From NCBI GenBank assembly GCA_964597775.1, contig CAZQZJ010000001.1, positions 6,033 through 70,032 on the forward strand: a stretch of DNA of 64,000 bases, written 5' to 3'. Source of the stretch: an uncultured Methanosarcinales archaeon (GTDB lineage Archaea; Nanobdellota; Nanobdellia; Woesearchaeales; JAGWAF01). The number at the start of each line of letters is the position of its first letter. The stretch's first letter is position 1. Shown here piece after piece: positions 32,585-37,686 of the stretch. The notes under the pieces were generated by a model that worked only from the letters and a program-made list of their open reading frames with translations, was not told the DNA's origin and searched no databases. The position numbers were made by a program, and so were the translations under genes.

Positions 32585-32671
32585 GCGTGATAACCTGGTT
32601 TAGAGGATATATAAATATATAGGATGCGCTTTACGAAAAGATTATTATAGTCGCATGTCAGTAATTAGTCT

Positions 32672-33004
32672 ATGGATGGGATTAATGTATTTGAAGATGG
32701 TGCATGCAAAAGATTAGATATTAAGACTTCAATCTATCCACTTAAAGTGGTAGTAACAACAGCATACACATTTCTTGATCGTGCATTTATCCTTCTTGAT
32801 GGTGATCCCAAATCAACAATCATTGTGCATCTCCAAGCCAAAAAGGAAGGAGATGCTGCTAATCTGCTTGTTAAAGAATTTCAAAACGCCCTACTTGGAT
32901 ATGCACATTTTCAATTAGTATCTGATGAAAATAGGAAGATACGAGAAATGATTGTGTATCGTGCATTGATGACTATGGAGCATGAGGTTACTCATGCAAA
33001 ATAA
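32672..33004 (+). CDS. small hypothetical protein upstream of the radical-SAM maturase (possible accessory or RRE-like partner)
   Basis: 110 aa. It overlaps the next small ORF, which in turn overlaps the rSAM start (ATGA), indicating a tight operon. Confidence 0.35.
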   Translation: MDGINVFEDGACKRLDIKTSIYPLKVVVTTAYTFLDRAFILLDGDPKSTIIVHLQAKKEGDAANLLVKEFQNALLGYAHFQLVSDENRKIREMIVYRALMTMEHEVTHAK

Positions 33005-33200
33005 GATCGTTGTGCATCTGAATCATATGTTCTATGATCCTTTTATTATTGAGGAGGTCATAAAGGTGTGTGATGTAACAATATCACAAGAAGGAGGGTA
33101 TTGTGTGGTAAGTTGTGATGATACGCCTCAAGCGCGTATCATGCTTAAGAATATACCTAATAAGGTATTATTTGCAATCAAACAAGGTAGTATTCAATGA
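32982..33200 (+). CDS. small hypothetical protein (72 aa) in the rSAM operon
   Basis: Translationally coupled between 32672..33004 and 33197..34639. Confidence 0.3.
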   Translation: MRLLMQNKIVVHLNHMFYDPFIIEEVIKVCDVTISQEGGYCVVSCDDTPQARIMLKNIPNKVLFAIKQGSIQ

Positions 33201-34639
33201 ATTCGCTTCCTGTTATTGGAATGAATGTGTATCGCGCTCGTCAGATAAAAGATAAGGTGCTTATCACAACTGATTCAGGTGCATGGTTATTTCTTGAGCA
33301 GAATGAATTTGAACTGCTTAAATCAAAAAATCTTACTCCTGAAATCTTAGATAAATTAACAACTGCCCGTATCTTGCTTACAACACAGAATATGTCTCAA
33401 GAAGTCGATGCGTATCAAAGAAAAAAAGCATTTTTGTATCAAGGAACTTCTCTTCATATTGTTGTTGTGACACTGCGTTGTAATCAGAGCTGTGTGTATT
33501 GTCATAGTGCATCGCGGCCAATGTTAGAATCAAAATTTGATATGACCAAAGAAACAGCTACAAAGGTTGTTGATTTTATTTTTCAGAGTCCTGCTCCTTC
33601 TGTAGATATTGAATTTCAAGGAGGTGAGCCACTAGCAAATTTTGAGGTTATTAAATATATTACTGAATATGCACAAGAGCTGTCAAAAAAAGGAGGTAAG
33701 CGTGTTCAGTTTACTATGACTTCAAATCTGATTTTTTTAGATGATGAAAAATTAGATTATCTTATTTGTAATAATATTTCTGTATGTACCTCGCTTGATG
33801 GTCCTAGGATTGTTCATGAGAAAAATAGGGGATTTTATGCACCTCTTATGCGACAGATTGAGCGTGTAAATAATGAGTATAGAAAAAGAGGTATGAATCA
33901 CCATATCAATGCTTTATGTACTATAACCAGGTTTGCTCTGGCTTATCCAAAAGAGATTATTGATGAGTATAAAAGGTTAGGGATGAGTGAGATTCATTTG
34001 CGTTTTCTCAATGAATTAGGAACTGCGCAAGAACAGTGGGAACATATTAAGTACAGTTCTGAGGAGTTTATTCTTTTTTGGAAGCAGGCCTTGGATTATA
34101 TTCTTGAGATCAATAAGCAAGGAACTGTATTTGTTGAAAGAGGAGCCAAGATAATGTTGCAAAAGATTTTAAGTGCTGATGATCCTAATTATGCTGAGAT
34201 GCGTTCTCCTTGTGGTGCTGCAACAGGTCAAATTGCTTATATGTATGACGGATCAGTGTATACCTGTGATGAAGGAAGAATGGTAAAAGAGGGTGTTTTC
34301 TTAATAGGTGATACAAGAAAGCATGCCTACAAAGAAGTGCTTACTTCAAGTCCTGTGTTAACATTAATGGGTGCGTCAAATAATGATAATTTTATTTGTG
34401 ATACTTGTGCATATAAACCTTGGTGTGGTATATGTCCTGTATTAAATTATGTAGAACAAGGTTCAATTATTGCCAGGATTTCTGAAACTTCAAGACATAA
34501 AATCTACCTTGCACAATTTGATTTTCTCTTTGAAAAATTGCTTAGCGATCCAGAAGCTACGCAGATATTTAAGCGTTGGGTTGAGCAAAGTGGATATAGA
34601 GTTACTCAACCAATTTTAGATCCGAAAGAAGTCTGTTAA
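33197..34639 (+). CDS. radical SAM enzyme with C-terminal SPASM/twitch Cys cluster (peptide-modifying maturase, anSME-like)
   Basis: It has the CNQSCVYC CxxxCxxC motif (LRCNQSCVYCHS), a GGEPL motif (IEFQGGEPLANF) and the C-terminal Cys cluster CDEG...CDTCAYKPWCGICP. Confidence 0.75.
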   Translation: MNSLPVIGMNVYRARQIKDKVLITTDSGAWLFLEQNEFELLKSKNLTPEILDKLTTARILLTTQNMSQEVDAYQRKKAFLYQGTSLHIVVVTLRCNQSCVYCHSASRPMLESKFDMTKETATKVVDFIFQSPAPSVDIEFQGGEPLANFEVIKYITEYAQELSKKGGKRVQFTMTSNLIFLDDEKLDYLICNNISVCTSLDGPRIVHEKNRGFYAPLMRQIERVNNEYRKRGMNHHINALCTITRFALAYPKEIIDEYKRLGMSEIHLRFLNELGTAQEQWEHIKYSSEEFILFWKQALDYILEINKQGTVFVERGAKIMLQKILSADDPNYAEMRSPCGAATGQIAYMYDGSVYTCDEGRMVKEGVFLIGDTRKHAYKEVLTSSPVLTLMGASNNDNFICDTCAYKPWCGICPVLNYVEQGSIIARISETSRHKIYLAQFDFLFEKLLSDPEATQIFKRWVEQSGYRVTQPILDPKEVC

Positions 34640-34699
34640 TTTTTGAAGGATTAATTTTTGAAGGATAGATTTTTATATGTGATCTGAGAATAAGATGCT

Positions 34700-35008
34700 A
34701 TGAAACAAGAGTTCTCATCTATGATAATATCATTTATGCTTGATGAAGATGGTAGGATTGATAAGCACAAGCTTATGCAGCTAGGTGCAGTGCTCTCAGC
34801 TGCTGGGTTAAGTTCTGGTATTGCTCATGCTCAATTGTCATGTCCATCTTGTGGTCCTGCTTGTGGAACCTCGTGTCATTCAAATTGTGCAGGTATTCGT
34901 TCAGAACAAGGAATGCATATTGGTCAACATGCGCATAATATTGAACAAGGTGGTTCTTGTCCTCCTCCTGGTGGAGGTGGTGGAGGAGGGGGTGGTGGGT
35001 ACTGTTAA
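34700..35008 (+). CDS. Cys-rich small ORF with poly-Gly tail; candidate precursor peptide (RiPP-like) for the adjacent rSAM/SPASM enzyme
   Basis: 102 aa. Leader-like MKQEFSSMIISFMLDEDGRIDKHKLMQLGAVLSAAGLSSGIAHAQ is followed by SCPSCGPACGTSCHSNCAG...SCPPPGGGGGGGGGGYC. It lies 60 nt downstream of the rSAM gene on the same strand. Confidence 0.45.
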   Translation: MKQEFSSMIISFMLDEDGRIDKHKLMQLGAVLSAAGLSSGIAHAQLSCPSCGPACGTSCHSNCAGIRSEQGMHIGQHAHNIEQGGSCPPPGGGGGGGGGGYC

Positions 35009-35038
35009 GGTTTTATAGAAGTGCTGTATTCTTAGAGT

Positions 35039-36046
35039 ATGATCCTTGGAATTGATATTGGTGGCAAGCATGTAAGAGGTGTTTTTCTTTTGAATGATCA
35101 AGTTGTTGGTCATACTGTTGTTGTGGCTCCAGCTTGTTTTGGTGAACGTGAATTAGTATATATACCAGCGCTTGAGCAAATACGAGATGCGCTTGGAATT
35201 GCTTTGGTAGATCATCTTCTTGTTCTCTCAACTGCTACGCTTAGTTCTGGATTTACTAAAGGTCTTACGCTAATATGTGAGGCTGTGGAAAATATCTTTG
35301 GTAATCCTTGTCTGCATTTTTTAGGTAATGATGGAAAATTCTATAATAAGACTGATGCGCTTAAGAATCCAGAAAAGGTATGCTGCACAGAATATTGGGG
35401 CACTATCACTTTTTGTAGTAGATTAACTCAAGAAAAAAAGTATGTATTAGTAGATATGGGAACACAGTCAACAACGATTCTTCCTGTGATTAATGGATCA
35501 ATTCCTACGAGTATAGAATGCACACCGCATGCTGCGTTTAGAGATGGTTTACTAATCATGATGGGTATGATTGGTACGCATGTTTATTCAGTGGTTTCTT
35601 CAGTGCAGTGGAATGGATATCACATGCCTATTAATGATTATACTCCTTTATTGATGTGTGATCTCTACTTTTATGAAGGTATCCTAAAAAGCGAGGAGTA
35701 TATATTATACCGTGAGTTGTCGATGGATCAGATCCATCATTTCCTGTGTAATCTGGTGTTAGTTGATTTCTTAACTGTTGATAAGGCAAAGACTCATGAG
35801 CTTGCTAAGCAGATTATTGAAAAGCAAGAGGGGATCATTTCTCAACATGTGGAAAATGTGTGTTCTGGATTTAGTTTGGATACTGTTATCGTAACAGGAC
35901 GTGGAGAAGGGGTTGTGCATGGTGCATTAAAAGGATGGAATAAAAAGGTGATATATATTGGTGATCTTCGTCCTGATGTTGCAAATAATGTTCCCCTTAT
36001 AGGAGCAGTGTATAGTTTACATGATCACCTAAATGAGTTAAGATAG
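35039..36046 (+). CDS. ASKHA-fold (actin/hexokinase-like) ATPase family protein, specific function unclear
   Basis: The N-terminal phosphate-1 motif MILGIDIGGKHVRGVFL resembles BadF/BadG/BcrA/BcrD and type-III PanK-like starts. 335 aa. Confidence 0.4.
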   Translation: MILGIDIGGKHVRGVFLLNDQVVGHTVVVAPACFGERELVYIPALEQIRDALGIALVDHLLVLSTATLSSGFTKGLTLICEAVENIFGNPCLHFLGNDGKFYNKTDALKNPEKVCCTEYWGTITFCSRLTQEKKYVLVDMGTQSTTILPVINGSIPTSIECTPHAAFRDGLLIMMGMIGTHVYSVVSSVQWNGYHMPINDYTPLLMCDLYFYEGILKSEEYILYRELSMDQIHHFLCNLVLVDFLTVDKAKTHELAKQIIEKQEGIISQHVENVCSGFSLDTVIVTGRGEGVVHGALKGWNKKVIYIGDLRPDVANNVPLIGAVYSLHDHLNELR

Positions 36047-37686
36047 GTGTGTTGGTAAAGATAGAGTGCCTCAATTGCAAATGCTGTTGTAATCTCTTTA
36101 GAGCCATAATAATAAAGACTGTAACCATACCACACGTGTTTATTCCAAGAGCCGTCAGGTTTTTGTTTTTTACGCAATAAAGAAGCTGCGCAATCGATTT
36201 GTGGTCCTGTATAATTTAGTCTGATAAGAGAACCAAGTGCTATTGCAGTATCCAAATCATTGCCAAACGAACAGTCTTTTTTTTGTGTTTGTAATATGTT
36301 GTTAATGATTTTCTCTTTTAAATTATCAAGACATGAAGATTCTATTTCTGATACACGTGATAATGAATCATAAAGAGATAGGGGTGTTAGATAATAGTGT
36401 GAGCATGATTTGTTAGTTATTGAAGAAGATAGGTAAGTGCAGAGATTGGGTGTTGATGTTTTAAGATAGTTGAAAACATTTGCATTTACAACACAGTCGA
36501 TATCATTCCCTTGATGATTGAACCAGGTGTAGAATCTTCCTTCATTATCTGTATAATTAAATAATATCTCGGTGATGTTGATAAGAGTATAATTGTATTT
36601 TTTAAGAATCCTTGCTGATGCAATAGTATCATCTGCATCAGGAGGAACTTTGTAATAGTGTTTGCTTTTTTTAGTCCAGTATTTCCATAATCCATCTTCT
36701 TCTTTATGTAAAACAAGATATGCTACACCTTTTTGAATTATGTCTGATTGAACAGGTAATTGGGATAATGATTCCAGTATAATGGCTGTTGGAAAGATAG
36801 CATAATCCTCAAAGCAAAAGATAAGGTAAGGGTCATAGCAAATATTATTTCTAAAGCTTCCATCCTCCTGCTGATGCGTTGCAAGGAATTGGATTCCTGC
36901 ATTAATCTGTTCATCGATGGTTCCCTGATTTGATATCAAAGGAGTTTCCTGATTTGATATCAAAGGAAGAGATAATGTAAGAAGAGCGCCAACCATCATC
37001 CACGGTGCAAATCGCATCTTTGTGTTGTGTGTGTTAAGGATGATAATATTGGTTAGATAACCTAAAAGAATAAGGAGAATAGTTAATAATAAGAATGATT
37101 GTGTAATAGGAATAAAGAGTAATGTATAGACAAATAATCCTGCATTGATGATAAGCATAATGGTTTTGTTTATATAAGAAATAGTGAATAATAAAAGAAT
37201 GATAAGCAATAAGGATAGATAAAATGGTATAGGGATATTGTAAGAAAGTCCGCTAATTCCAATAACTCCAAAGAAGATTGTTATTGCATTTTCTGGTAAT
37301 GGATAGTGTAGTTTTCTGTATTGGATATGGCACATGCTTTTGATAACAAGATAGGTGTATGCAGGAATAATCATGGCTGCAAGAAGTTGCAGAGGGGTTA
37401 CAAAAGAGGTATATTGTGTATGGATTAGAAGGATAGCATTATAGAGGGTAAAGAGTTTGGCATCTCCACCTCGCCAAAAGTTAAGTAGGTATAAAAAAAA
37501 TGAGCCGAGAAAACAGGCTGCTAGAATCAGCAACATGCTAAGATTAAGACGTCCATAAAAATAGAGCATACTAGCTGTTATAAGTGAAAAAAAAGAGATT
37601 GTATAATTTTTAATTTTGTGATAATAATGATCTTCATATGAAGTGATTATACCTAAGATTACTACTAATATTAGTGGAAGATTCAT
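36025..37686 (-). CDS. A24-family prepilin/preflagellin peptidase (PibD/FlaK-like) fused to a C-terminal prenyltransferase/squalene-cyclase-type alpha/alpha-toroid repeat domain
   Basis: The N-terminal polytopic domain has conserved Asp motifs (ITSYEDHYYHKIKN; FWRGGDAKLF, compare the GxGDxKL motif of A24 peptidases). After about 260 aa of TM helices come the repeats AGIQFLATHQQEDGSF, KGVAYLVLHKEEDGLWKYW, DADDTIASARIL and LLRKKQKPDGSWN, typical of SQHop_cyclase/prenyltransferase repeats. Confidence 0.6.
   Translation of the reverse strand: MNLPLILVVILGIITSYEDHYYHKIKNYTISFFSLITASMLYFYGRLNLSMLLILAACFLGSFFLYLLNFWRGGDAKLFTLYNAILLIHTQYTSFVTPLQLLAAMIIPAYTYLVIKSMCHIQYRKLHYPLPENAITIFFGVIGISGLSYNIPIPFYLSLLLIILLLFTISYINKTIMLIINAGLFVYTLLFIPITQSFLLLTILLILLGYLTNIIILNTHNTKMRFAPWMMVGALLTLSLPLISNQETPLISNQGTIDEQINAGIQFLATHQQEDGSFRNNICYDPYLIFCFEDYAIFPTAIILESLSQLPVQSDIIQKGVAYLVLHKEEDGLWKYWTKKSKHYYKVPPDADDTIASARILKKYNYTLINITEILFNYTDNEGRFYTWFNHQGNDIDCVVNANVFNYLKTSTPNLCTYLSSSITNKSCSHYYLTPLSLYDSLSRVSEIESSCLDNLKEKIINNILQTQKKDCSFGNDLDTAIALGSLIRLNYTGPQIDCAASLLRKKQKPDGSWNKHVWYGYSLYYYGSKEITTAFAIEALYLYQHTYLNSFR

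What the first reader, a model, noticed from the sequence alone, without database searches (positions are those of the whole stretch)
32672..35008. Compact radical-SAM/SPASM maturase operon followed by a Cys-rich, poly-Gly-tailed 102-aa ORF: candidate archaeal RiPP cluster
Two tiny translationally coupled ORFs precede a 480-aa radical SAM enzyme with CxxxCxxC plus C-terminal SPASM-type Cys motifs. Sixty nucleotides downstream is an ORF with a leader-like N-terminal half and the core SCPSCGPACGTSCHSNCAG...HIGQHAHNIEQGGSCPPPGGGGGGGGGGYC. The regular Cx2Cx3Cx3Cx3C spacing is what sactipeptide or ranthipeptide-type substrates look like. rSAM-modified peptides are rarely reported in small-genome archaea. 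The gene that follows (an ASKHA-fold ATPase) might or might not belong to the cluster.
Basis: partly seen in the sequence, partly recalled or inferred. Interest (0 to 1): 0.8.

Follow-up and report, generated by a model that had tools for sequence, protein, structure and literature searches.

The report
Archaeal HxsB cassette, Cys-rich precursor variant
This is a compact version of the His-Xaa-Ser (Hxs) radical-SAM peptide-maturation system in a tiny-genome (DPANN) archaeon, and its substrate peptide has swapped the usual His-Xaa-Ser repeats for a rare, conserved cysteine-rich, poly-glycine-tailed core.

Summary
Two overlapping small ORFs, a 480-aa radical SAM/SPASM enzyme and a 102-aa Cys-rich, poly-Gly-tailed ORF 60 nt downstream are all present.

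The enzyme is HxsB (TIGR03978, 448.7 bits against a cutoff of 370). The first small ORF is HxsD and the second is a diverged HxsD paralogue. GenBank already names HxsB and HxsD but calls the peptide hypothetical.

About half of 80 related loci (DPANN, CPR, Myxococcota and others) carry a peptide with a conserved leader next to HxsB; HxsD is upstream in 63. The core is usually (His-Xaa-Ser)n ending in an aromatic residue.

The window peptide matches that leader (E = 7e-9, the only match in the window). It has no HxS triplet. Its core recurs in about six rare relatives, two of them directly downstream of the closest HxsB homologues. It is under purifying selection (dN/dS about 0.16).

HxsC and any other radical SAM enzyme are absent from the 64 kb. 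The ASKHA gene is not part of the system. An A24-type peptidase is a recurrent neighbour.

The verdict is a new substrate variant of a known but chemically unsolved system. It is not a demonstrated sactipeptide or ranthipeptide.

The parts
32672..33004 (+). HxsD, 110 aa. Small accessory protein of the His-Xaa-Ser system. This copy is a short form lacking the acidic PWE(E/D)KYG tail that 13 of 17 archaeal relatives carry.
   Evidence: TIGR03976 scores 51.2 bits against a cutoff of 50. tblastn finds homologues just upstream of HxsB in 63 of 80 loci. GenBank names it HxsD, MEK6874803.1.
32982..33200 (+). HxsD-like paralogue (HxsD'), 72 aa, or 68 aa from the ATG at 32994. It is translationally coupled on both sides.
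   Evidence: NF038315 HxsD_rel scores 20.9 bits (E = 3e-4, below the cutoff of 41). An HMM built from the equivalent second small ORF of 46 relatives hits this ORF (E = 0.003) and HxsD (E = 2e-6), and nothing else in the window. An ORF of 58-83 aa sits in this position in relatives.
33197..34639 (+). HxsB, 480 aa. Radical SAM enzyme with a SPASM-type C-terminal Cys cluster. It is the only radical SAM enzyme in the 64-kb window.
   Evidence: TIGR03978 scores 448.7 bits against a cutoff of 370 (E = 2e-134), and Pfam Radical_SAM scores 44.1 bits. All 63 invariant columns of a 31-sequence alignment are retained. The exact protein is named HxsB in GenBank, MEK6874805.1. No second radical SAM was found.
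34700..34834 (+). Leader of the precursor (aa 1-45). It carries the F12/E16/G18/K22/G29 motif, then a weakly hydrophobic stretch ending in AHA|Q. The shape resembles a signal peptide.
   Evidence: The leader HMM from 33 relatives' peptides gives 31.1 bits, E = 7e-9, the unique hit in the window. NCBIfam HxsA3 aligns residues 5-33 to profile 5-33 but scores only 15.9 bits against a cutoff of 65. E16 and G29 are invariant in 16 aligned precursors.
34835..35008 (+). Core of the precursor (aa 46-102 plus stop): LSCPSCGPACGTSCHSNCAGIRSEQGMHIGQHAHNIEQGGSCPPPGGGGGGGGGGYC. It has 7 Cys, 4 His, no His-Xaa-Ser triplet, a CPPP motif, Gly10 and a penultimate aromatic residue.
   Evidence: It is conserved in P0122 (60% over 101 aa, E = 9e-34), P0123/L081, P0124, P0125 and P0128. 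For the core, dN = 0.18 and dS = 1.13 against L087. AlphaFold2 places a beta-hairpin at residues 58-69/72-83 with pLDDT 83-90, from an 8-sequence alignment.
36025..37686 (-). 553-aa membrane protein. The N-terminal domain is an archaeal A24 (prepilin-peptidase-type) aspartyl protease domain with YED at residue 19 and GGDAKL at residue 75. It is fused to a terpene-cyclase/prenyltransferase-like C-terminal domain. It is a recurrent neighbour of DPANN Hxs cassettes and a candidate leader peptidase. Its membership in the system is uncertain.
   Evidence: The N-terminal domain hits neighbours of HxsB in 13 of 80 loci and in L085, L086, L090 and L091. Those neighbours pass Pfam Peptidase_A24 (L054, 33.5 bits against 26.5) or Arc_PepC. 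The window protein itself gives no Pfam A24 hit at E <= 0.1. Its only Pfam hit is SQHop_cyclase_C at 24 bits, below the cutoff of 26.1.

Best explanation
The locus is an HxsC-less His-Xaa-Ser-type maturation cassette, HxsD - HxsD' - HxsB - precursor, of the kind that is widespread in DPANN archaea.

The 102-aa ORF is its substrate. The N-terminal 45 residues are the family's conserved leader. It combines a recognition motif (FLxxEEGxIxK-like) with a hydrophobic segment ending in AHA|Q, which resembles a signal peptide.

The core is a rare variant. In it the C-terminal (His-Xaa-Ser)n array has been replaced by a conserved Cys-rich block, a His-containing beta-hairpin (CHSNC...HIGQHAHNIE), CPPP, poly-Gly and a C-terminal aromatic residue.

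**Proposed mechanism**
1. HxsB, helped by the two HxsD-type proteins, binds the leader in the cytoplasm.
2. HxsB installs a radical-SAM-dependent covalent modification in the core. The most likely site is the conserved His/Asn hairpin. Cys thioethers are less likely.
3. The leader is removed and the 58-residue His/Cys-rich product is exported to the cell surface.
4. There it acts either as an envelope-level antiviral barrier, as shown for E. coli HXS, or as a metal-binding peptide.

**What is shown here:** the gene identities, the leader homology, conservation of the core and selection on it, the operon coupling, and the absence of HxsC.

**What is inferred:** that HxsB modifies this peptide, which residues it modifies, the export step, and the biological role.
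For: **Enzyme and accessory proteins**
- HxsB and HxsD pass their curated NCBIfam cutoffs.
- HxsB keeps the radical SAM and SPASM cysteines and all 63 invariant columns of the clade alignment.
- HxsD lies upstream of HxsB in 63 of 80 loci.

**The precursor**
- In 45 of 80 HxsB loci a leader-bearing peptide lies beside HxsB.
- The window peptide matches that leader at E = 7e-9, the only match in the window.
- The closest HxsB relatives have the same Cys-rich core directly downstream. These are L087 (80% identity over the last 85 residues) and L081 (53% identity).
- The core evolves under purifying selection: dN 0.18, dS 1.13.
- H60, H77 and H79 are invariant and N62 nearly so across 16 aligned canonical and variant precursors.
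- AlphaFold2 places these residues on the two strands of one hairpin, pLDDT 83-90.

**Literature**
- E. coli HxsA is a signal-peptide-bearing protein. Its N-terminal processing, a +8 Da modification and its periplasmic export depend on HxsB, HxsC and HxsD (PMC13128918).
Against: - No experiment or expression data exist for this organism.
- The peptide has zero HxS triplets.
- It reaches only 15.9 of the 65 bits required by NCBIfam HxsA3.
- An HMM of the canonical DPANN core module does not detect the window core at E <= 10. The His/Asn correspondence therefore rests on a multiple alignment only.
- The leader lacks the basic PKIKKK segment of canonical leaders.
- In E. coli both HxsB and HxsC are required. 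No second radical SAM is present here.
- In one relative (L091) the Cys-rich peptide is convergent to HxsB and about 1.4 kb from it, not co-directional.
- The mature peptide has about -1 net charge from acidic and basic residues, His not counted. The electrostatic DNA-binding model proposed for E. coli HxsA does not transfer in any obvious way.
Confidence: 0.72

Rival explanations
1. This is a ranthipeptide- or sactipeptide-type product. HxsB in this sub-lineage forms Cys-S-to-carbon thioether cross-links within the Cx2Cx3Cx3Cx3C block.
For: - The core has 7 Cys. C51, C55 and C87 are invariant in the 6-sequence subfamily alignment.
- After HxsB itself, the best NCBIfam hits are the thioether-forming SPASM enzymes PapB, CcpM, SCIFF and QhpD.
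- In relatives whose HxsA carries Cys-containing tails (L054, L083, L086, L092), an extra PapB-like radical SAM/SPASM enzyme is encoded nearby. The best case reaches 254 bits against a cutoff of 340. Thioether chemistry on Hxs-type precursors is therefore plausible in this group.
Against: - In those relatives the PapB-like enzyme is an additional gene, not HxsB. The window has none in 64 kb, and L091 has none in 10 kb.
- HxsB misses all thioether-family cutoffs by a factor of 2.5 or more.
- Many HxsB substrates have no Cys.
Confidence: 0.15
2. The peptide is an unmodified, secreted Cys/His-rich metal-binding or disulfide-rich surface peptide. Its position next to HxsB is a relic, and HxsB acts on another substrate or on none.
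For: - Seven Cys and four His fall within 58 mature residues. A signal-peptide-like segment ends in AHA|Q.
- The core is more conserved than the leader: 78% against 47% identity. That fits a structural or metal-binding constraint.
- In L091 the peptide is not in the HxsB operon.
Against: - The Hxs-type leader motif (F12, E16, G18, K22, G29) is retained under selection: leader dN/dS is about 0.3. A plain Sec signal would not need it.
- Adjacency to HxsB is kept in the three closest genomes (window, L087, L081), at 53-80% HxsB identity.
- HxsB and HxsD are intact.
Confidence: 0.1
3. The 102-aa ORF is a decayed or truncated HxsA gene that has lost its repeats, or has lost the ~250-aa C-terminal domain seen in P0122-P0124, and is non-functional.
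For: - It has no HxS repeat.
- Three relatives continue past the GGGGGW motif into a long C-terminal domain that the window lacks.
- The (GGN)10 tract could promote slippage.
Against: - The other two reading frames of the core do not encode HxS repeats.
- Short forms of 88-98 aa also exist: P0125, P0128 and P0129.
- The core is under strong purifying selection.
- A 99%-identical copy exists in an independent assembly.
- The sequence downstream of the stop shows no similarity to the P0122 C-terminal domain. It is the unrelated ASKHA gene.
Confidence: 0.04

Closest known systems
E. coli / Pseudomonadota HXS antiphage system, HxsD-HxsB-HxsC-HxsA (Haft & Basu 2011 as cited in PMC9062424; Li et al. 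2026, PMC13128918)
   Same: Both have orthologous HxsB (radical SAM/SPASM) and HxsD, with the substrate gene downstream in the same orientation. In both, the substrate has an N-terminal export-type signal and a His-rich segment. In E. coli, maturation and export depend on the radical SAM enzymes.
   Different: - There is no HxsC here, and a second HxsD-like protein is present instead.
- The substrate is a 102-aa peptide, not a 214-aa peptidoglycan-binding protein.
- It has no HxS repeats and is not basic.
- The host is an archaeon with no peptidoglycan or periplasm.
- The E. coli paper reports 99.7% of systems in Pseudomonadota and 99.8% with four genes. This lineage lies outside what that survey captured.
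HxsA3 / HxsA4 precursor families (NCBIfam NF038309, NF038313) with HxsD_rel (NF038315): the uncharacterised DPANN/CPR/Myxococcota-type cassettes seen in loci L001-L092
   Same: - The gene order HxsD - HxsD' - HxsB - peptide is the same.
- The leader is homologous.
- A24 peptidase and RNase P p30 neighbours recur in DPANN.
- There is an aromatic residue at or near the C-terminus.
   Different: - Canonical members carry 1 to more than 30 HxS/HGS triplets ending in SY or SW, and often no Cys.
- The window peptide has none. It carries CPSC..C..CHxNC, IGQHxHxIE, CPPP and poly-Gly instead.
- It falls far below both model cutoffs.
- The basic PKIKKK part of the leader is missing.
Ranthipeptides / SCIFF / CcpM-type Cys-rich radical SAM RiPPs (PapB NF047865, TIGR03974, TIGR04068)
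   Same: Both have a SPASM-domain radical SAM enzyme, a short precursor with regularly spaced Cys, and a leader-core architecture.
   Different: - The maturase does not belong to those families.
- No thioether evidence exists.
- The PapB-like enzymes that accompany some Cys-bearing Hxs precursors elsewhere are absent here.
Bufferins (signal-peptide-bearing, Cys-containing, metal-binding RiPPs). This comparison rests on my own knowledge and was not tested here.
   Same: Conceptually both are modified peptides whose leader doubles as an export signal. In both, the Cys- or His-rich mature part would function outside the cytoplasm.
   Different: Bufferins are matured by MNIO (DUF692) enzymes, not radical SAM enzymes. 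There is no sequence relationship.

Membership tests
His-Xaa-Ser (HXS) system | HxsB radical SAM/SPASM maturase | tested here: met
   TIGR03978 scores 448.7 bits against a cutoff of 370, covering residues 12-462 of 480. The CX3CX2C motif and SPASM Cys are retained.
His-Xaa-Ser (HXS) system | HxsD small accessory protein encoded upstream | tested here: met
   TIGR03976 scores 51.2 bits against a cutoff of 50, a marginal pass. Homologues lie upstream of HxsB in 63 of 80 loci. Relatives carry Pfam PF27806 HxsD.
His-Xaa-Ser (HXS) system | HxsC, the second radical SAM enzyme, adjacent to HxsB | tested here: not met
   The HxsB HMM, nine diverse second radical SAMs from relatives, and a CX3CX2C scan find no other radical SAM in the 64 kb. 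One could still lie elsewhere in the genome.
His-Xaa-Ser (HXS) system | Substrate with tandem His-Xaa-Ser repeats | tested here: not met
   There are zero H-x-S triplets in the 102 aa. The other reading frames hold no hidden repeats.
His-Xaa-Ser (HXS) system | Antiphage activity through an exported, radical-SAM-matured effector | not testable with these tools
   Known only for E. coli (PMC13128918). PADLOC-DB 2023 has no Hxs model and gave no relevant hit.
HxsA3/HxsA4-type precursor (DPANN/CPR/Myxococcota cassettes) | Conserved N-terminal leader (..FLxxEEGKIxK.. plus a hydrophobic segment) | tested here: met
   The custom leader HMM gives 31.1 bits, E = 7e-9, unique in the window. NCBIfam HxsA3 aligns the same residues but scores only 15.9 against 65 bits. 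By the curated model alone this would be not met.
HxsA3/HxsA4-type precursor (DPANN/CPR/Myxococcota cassettes) | Core module H-x-N...G-x-H-x-H followed by HxS repeats and a C-terminal aromatic residue | tested here: inconclusive
   H60, N62, H77 and H79 align with invariant or near-invariant columns, and Y101 is penultimate. However, an HMM of the canonical module does not detect the window core, and the HxS tail is absent.
Sactipeptide / ranthipeptide / SCIFF / CcpM | Maturase belongs to the family's radical SAM clade | tested here: not met
   PapB 127.7 against 340, SCIFF 97.2 against 425, CcpM 105.4 against 500, RumMC 72.3 against 720.
Sactipeptide / ranthipeptide / SCIFF / CcpM | Cys sulfur to alpha-, beta- or gamma-carbon thioether cross-links in the product | not testable with these tools
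   This requires mass spectrometry or NMR of the modified peptide.
Anaerobic sulfatase maturase (anSME) | Passes the anSME model and has a sulfatase partner | tested here: not met
   TIGR03942 scores 93.5 against 349.45, and NF010321 58.4 against 441. No neighbouring gene in the region gave a sulfatase hit.

The most novel reading that the evidence does not exclude
HxsB does not need His-Xaa-Ser repeats at all. Its real target is the short His/Asn beta-hairpin (H60-x-N62 ... H77-x-H79) that survives in this repeat-less variant. In this sub-lineage a single radical SAM enzyme plus two HxsD proteins then produce a secreted Cys/His-rich peptide that carries metal or cross-links. This may involve cleavage by the co-localised A24 prepilin-type peptidase at the invariant Gly29. 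That would define the minimal recognition and modification unit of the whole, chemically unsolved Hxs family. It would also reveal a new archaeal surface peptide class.
Probability: 0.25. Interest if true: 0.7.

Novelty: new variant of a known kind. Interest (0 to 1): 0.5.

Why it matters
The chemistry installed by the Hxs radical SAM enzymes is still unknown. In E. coli there is a +8 Da change on SHRSS. Both HxsB and HxsC are needed there, the substrate is insoluble, and no in-vitro reconstitution exists (PMC13128918).

The archaeal cassettes need only one radical SAM enzyme and act on peptides of about 70-100 aa. This one is a natural repeat-free substrate. It is therefore a tractable system for finding out what HxsB actually does and which residues it needs.

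The result also matters for distribution. A system recently described as an almost exclusively proteobacterial antiphage defence has a large, differently built lineage in DPANN archaea, CPR bacteria and Myxococcota. In DPANN it sits in conserved synteny with housekeeping genes. That raises the question of whether its role there is antiviral, metal-related or part of the cell surface.

For genome annotation, the peptide and its roughly six relatives are currently "hypothetical proteins" and are missed by the HxsA models.

Tried and rejected
1. **Frameshift idea.** I asked whether the core was a shifted HxS repeat. The other reading frames give no HxS, so this was rejected.
2. **Word-based search with the peptide.** It found only a 99%-identical copy. 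The exhaustive phmmer search was needed to find the subfamily.
3. **JGI metagenome scans.** One used the Cys-rich alignment and one used HxsB alone. They returned nothing and a single 35%-identity locus, respectively. The subfamily is so far seen only in ENA, Logan and NCBI assemblies.
4. **HMM of the canonical DPANN core module.** It gave no hit on the window peptide. I therefore do not claim demonstrated core homology to canonical HxsA.
5. **ASKHA gene as a cluster member.** It is absent from all 87 related loci tested. It shows only superfamily-level similarity to MfnF/TIGR03123. Rejected.
6. **HxsC or any other radical SAM in the window.** None was found.
7. **PADLOC defence models.** There was no relevant hit.
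8. **Rfam.** No RNA family matched anywhere in the window.
9. **Acidic PWE tail of HxsD against substrate type.** There was no clean correlation.
10. **Counting second radical SAMs with the HxsB HMM.** This undercounts; for example it misses the L002 enzyme. It was not used quantitatively.
11. **First structure submission.** It was redone with contiguous substrings.
Full report
**1. What is in the sequence**

Four co-directional ORFs lie on the + strand:
- 32672-33004 (110 aa).
- 32982-33200 (72 aa). GenBank uses the ATG at 32994, giving 68 aa.
- 33197-34639 (480 aa).
- After a 60-nt spacer, 34700-35008 (102 aa).

The first three overlap, by 23 or 11 nt and then by ATGA. The 480-aa protein has CNQSCVYC (C95, C99, C102) and a C-terminal CX2CX5CX2C cluster.

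The 102-aa product has Cys at positions 48, 51, 55, 59, 63, 87 and 102, which is Cx2Cx3Cx3Cx3C. It has His at 23, 43, 60, 73, 77 and 79, ten consecutive Gly, and ends in YC.

**2. Identity of the enzyme and the small ORFs**

- The 480-aa protein is HxsB. It scores 448.7 bits on TIGR03978 against a cutoff of 370 (E = 2e-134).
- Every thioether, sactipeptide, ranthipeptide or anSME model is missed by a wide margin: PapB 127.7 against 340, SCIFF 97 against 425, CcpM 105 against 500, anSME 93.5 against 349.
- The 110-aa ORF passes the HxsD model (51.2 against 50).
- The 72-aa ORF is a weak HxsD-like match (NF038315, 20.9 bits). An HMM built from the equivalent ORF of 46 relatives hits it (E = 0.003) and HxsD (E = 2e-6) and nothing else in the window. 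The two small ORFs are therefore paralogues.
- The exact proteins are in GenBank from a "MAG: Nanoarchaeota archaeon" contig of 72 kb. HxsD and HxsB are already named. The second small ORF, the peptide (MEK6874806.1) and the ASKHA protein are "hypothetical".
- RNase P p30 next door confirms an archaeal host.

**3. What is known about the family**

The His-Xaa-Ser system was defined bioinformatically by Haft & Basu (cited in PMC9062424). It was characterised in 2026 as the E. coli HXS antiphage system (PMC13128918).
- The gene order there is HxsD-HxsB-HxsC-HxsA.
[quoted passage not shown] - The chemistry is unresolved and there is no in-vitro reconstitution.
- That paper reports 99.7% of systems in Pseudomonadota and 99.8% with four genes.
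- I found no paper in the searchable library describing Hxs in DPANN archaea.

**4. Relatives and their neighbourhoods**

HxsB has more than 4,600 homologues at E <= 1e-20. Where a source names the organism, nearly all of the best 120 (46-53% identity, apart from the exact match) are Woese-, Pace- or Nanoarchaeota.

I fetched 80 loci from GTDB species representatives. They comprise 24 archaeal loci plus CPR, Myxococcota, Bdellovibrionota, Elusimicrobiota and Omnitrophota.
- HxsD lies upstream of HxsB in 63 of 80.
- A second small ORF of 58-83 aa sits between HxsD and HxsB.
- In 45 of 80 loci a peptide beside HxsB carries a conserved leader, consensus ..LPKIKKKIxxFLTSEEGKISKKxLLKxG plus a hydrophobic stretch. 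It is followed by a core that typically ends in (H-x-S)n and an aromatic residue, for example ...HSSHSSHGSHNSW.
- These canonical peptides hit NCBIfam HxsA4 and HxsA3.

**5. The 102-aa ORF is a member of that precursor family by its leader**

- A leader HMM built from 33 relatives scores the window ORF at 31.1 bits, E = 7e-9. It is the only hit among 982 six-frame ORFs.
- NCBIfam HxsA3 aligns the same residues (5-33 to 5-33) but is far below cutoff.
- In a 16-sequence alignment of canonical and variant precursors, E16 and G29 are invariant and G18 and K22 nearly so.
- The window leader lacks the basic PKIKKK segment.

**6. The core is a rare but conserved variant, not noise or decay**

It contains no H-x-S triplet, and no other frame encodes one. 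An exhaustive phmmer search of 1.84 billion representatives found only 12 proteins at E <= 1e-3.

Six of them share the same core design:
- P0122: ...CPSCGPACGTSCHANCNGIVTQDGTHIGQHAHRIEQGGSCPPPLPPPSGGGGGW..., 60% identity over 101 residues.
- P0123, P0124, P0125, P0128 and P0129.

Invariant positions in the six-sequence subfamily alignment of the window, P0122-P0125 and P0128 are C51, C55, H60, N62, G75, H77, H79, I81 and C87-P-P-P.

Adjacency supports the link to HxsB. P0122's contig (L087) begins with the C-terminus of an HxsB that is 80% identical to the window's. P0123's contig (L081) has HxsD-HxsD'-HxsB (53% identity, the best full-length hit) directly upstream.

Selection was measured against L087. 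Synonymous sites are near saturation, so these values are approximate.

| Region | aa identity | dN | dS |
|---|---|---|---|
| Core (aa 46-90) | 78% | 0.18 | 1.13 |
| Leader (aa 1-45) | 47% | 0.46 | 1.54 |

Other variation seen among relatives:
- Poly-Gly tails, Cys-containing tails or both occur in L054 (...HNDGGGGGGGCSSISW), L067 (...GGWC), L035, L028, L083 and L086.
- Three subfamily members continue after GGGGGW into a domain of about 250 aa with no Pfam match.
- One has a Hint/intein domain inserted there.
- The window form is the short type, like P0125, P0128 and P0129.

**7. Relation of the core to canonical cores**

In the 16-sequence alignment, H60, H77 and H79 are invariant and N62 is nearly so. 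Intermediates such as P0131 (...AHANSLGL...GTHNHCIETHSSHSSH...) exist.

AlphaFold2, using an 8-sequence alignment, gives a mean pLDDT of 67.7. Residues 51-90 reach 83-90 and form a beta-hairpin at 58-69/72-83. That would place H60/N62 on the strand paired with the one carrying H77/H79.

However, an HMM of the canonical module does not detect the window core. I treat this correspondence as a hypothesis.

**8. What is missing and what else is linked**

- HxsB is the only radical SAM enzyme in the 64 kb. There is no HxsC.
- In relatives, extra radical SAMs near the cassette fall into three types. One is HxsC-like (L005, 178.8 against 267.9). A second is HxsC4-like (L002, L016, L077). A third is PapB-like SPASM enzymes (L054, L083, L086, L092). 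The PapB-like ones accompany Cys-containing HxsA tails.
- This makes thioether formation on Hxs-type precursors plausible in the group, but by an enzyme that the window lacks. L091, which has a CPPP-type peptide, also lacks one within 10 kb.
- The ASKHA gene (35039-36046) is absent from all related loci. It is not part of the system.
- An archaeal A24 prepilin-type peptidase recurs next to DPANN cassettes in several arrangements: upstream on the same strand, downstream on the same strand (L091), or on the opposite strand, as in the window. It is often next to RNase P p30.
- The window's copy (36025-37686, - strand) has both candidate catalytic Asp motifs, YED and GGDAKL. It is fused to a terpene-cyclase-like domain.
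- The persistence of this neighbour through rearrangements suggests, but does not prove, a functional link. One possibility is cleavage at the invariant Gly29.
- The short hydrophobic stretch ending in AxA fits signal peptidase I better. From my own knowledge, class III signals usually have K/R at position -2, which is absent here.

**9. Mechanism I commit to**

The cassette matures the 102-aa precursor. The leader is recognised by HxsB with HxsD and HxsD'. HxsB makes a radical-SAM-dependent modification in the core, most likely in the His/Asn hairpin. The leader is then removed, and a 58-residue Cys/His-rich peptide is exported to the cell surface.

- **Shown here:** gene identities, coupling of the ORFs, leader homology, conservation of the core and selection on it, and conserved adjacency.
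- **Inferred:** the enzyme-substrate relationship, the site and type of modification, export, and the biological role.

The biological role is either antiviral, by analogy with E. coli, or metal-binding, given 7 Cys and 4 His. The mature part has a net acidic/basic charge near -1. The electrostatic DNA-binding model proposed for E. coli does not transfer simply.

**10. Verdict**

- The system is a known kind. HxsB and HxsD are already annotated in GenBank.
- It has an architecture (HxsC-less, two HxsD paralogues) that I could not find described in the searchable literature.
- Its substrate subfamily is currently unannotated and rare.

I rate it a new variant of a known kind, with moderate interest. 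Its main value is as a minimal, repeat-free test case for the unsolved HxsB chemistry.

Noticed in passing
window 34636-34665: There is an exact tandem duplication of 15 nt (TTAATTTTTGAAGGA x2). It spans the HxsB stop codon and the start of the spacer before the peptide gene. It is followed by TTTTTATAT about 21-29 nt upstream of the peptide ATG. Similar TATA-like A/T boxes sit about 23-31 nt upstream of the HxsD ATG (32641-32649) and about 21-29 nt upstream of the ASKHA ATG (35010-35018). This may indicate separate, near-leaderless archaeal promoters. It is a reading of the sequence only.
   Followed up: partly
window 36025-37686 (- strand): This 553-aa protein joins an A24 prepilin-peptidase-like membrane domain to a C-terminal domain with weak squalene-hopene-cyclase/prenyltransferase (alpha/alpha toroid) similarity (24 bits, below cutoff). 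Relatives instead have the A24 domain plus Arc_PepC (about 370 aa), or A24 plus PMT_2 (840 aa in L083).
   Followed up: partly
window 9952-32584 (- strand): There is a run of very large ORFs of 1001, 2069, 1945, 500 and 971 aa. Some have hits indicating extracellular proteins: beta-helix/NosD-like in the 2069-aa ORF and bacterial TSP3 repeats in the 1945-aa ORF. The 971-aa ORF is Cys-rich with an N-terminal hydrophobic signal. Homologues of the 971-aa protein lie next to Hxs cassettes in five other DPANN loci (L001, L005, L009, L055, L086).
   Followed up: partly
L092 5001-5750 (protein P0130): An HxsA-type precursor directly downstream of HxsB carries a Hint/intein domain. It lies between ...PPPPSGGGC and CGGPCGW (CFVAGT...LLAHN|C). 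The intein C-terminal splicing model is passed (TIGR01443, 20 bits against 15.6). This would be an intein, or a self-cleaving Hint domain, inside a RiPP-like precursor. A PapB-like radical SAM follows.
   Followed up: partly
L087 343-1410 (P0122); also P0123/L081 and P0124/L090: Three members of the Cys-rich subfamily continue after the GGGGGW motif into a conserved C-terminal domain of about 250 aa (W[LI][FM]D[AC][LI]G...). It has no Pfam or NCBIfam match. The window peptide stops where this domain would begin.
   Followed up: no
window 35039-36046: The ASKHA-fold protein resembles MfnF / TIGR03123 (H4MPT-linked C1 pathway protein) and Hydantoinase_A only at superfamily level (87.6 bits against a cutoff of 244). 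This is unexpected in a DPANN genome. It is not linked to Hxs in any relative.
   Followed up: partly
window 1-64000: No Rfam family reaches its gathering score anywhere in the 64 kb. That includes tRNA, rRNA and riboswitch families.
   Followed up: no
L083 2606-3772: Some DPANN cassettes carry two full-length HxsD genes plus the short HxsD' and up to three extra radical SAM genes downstream. The accessory set is therefore quite plastic.
   Followed up: no
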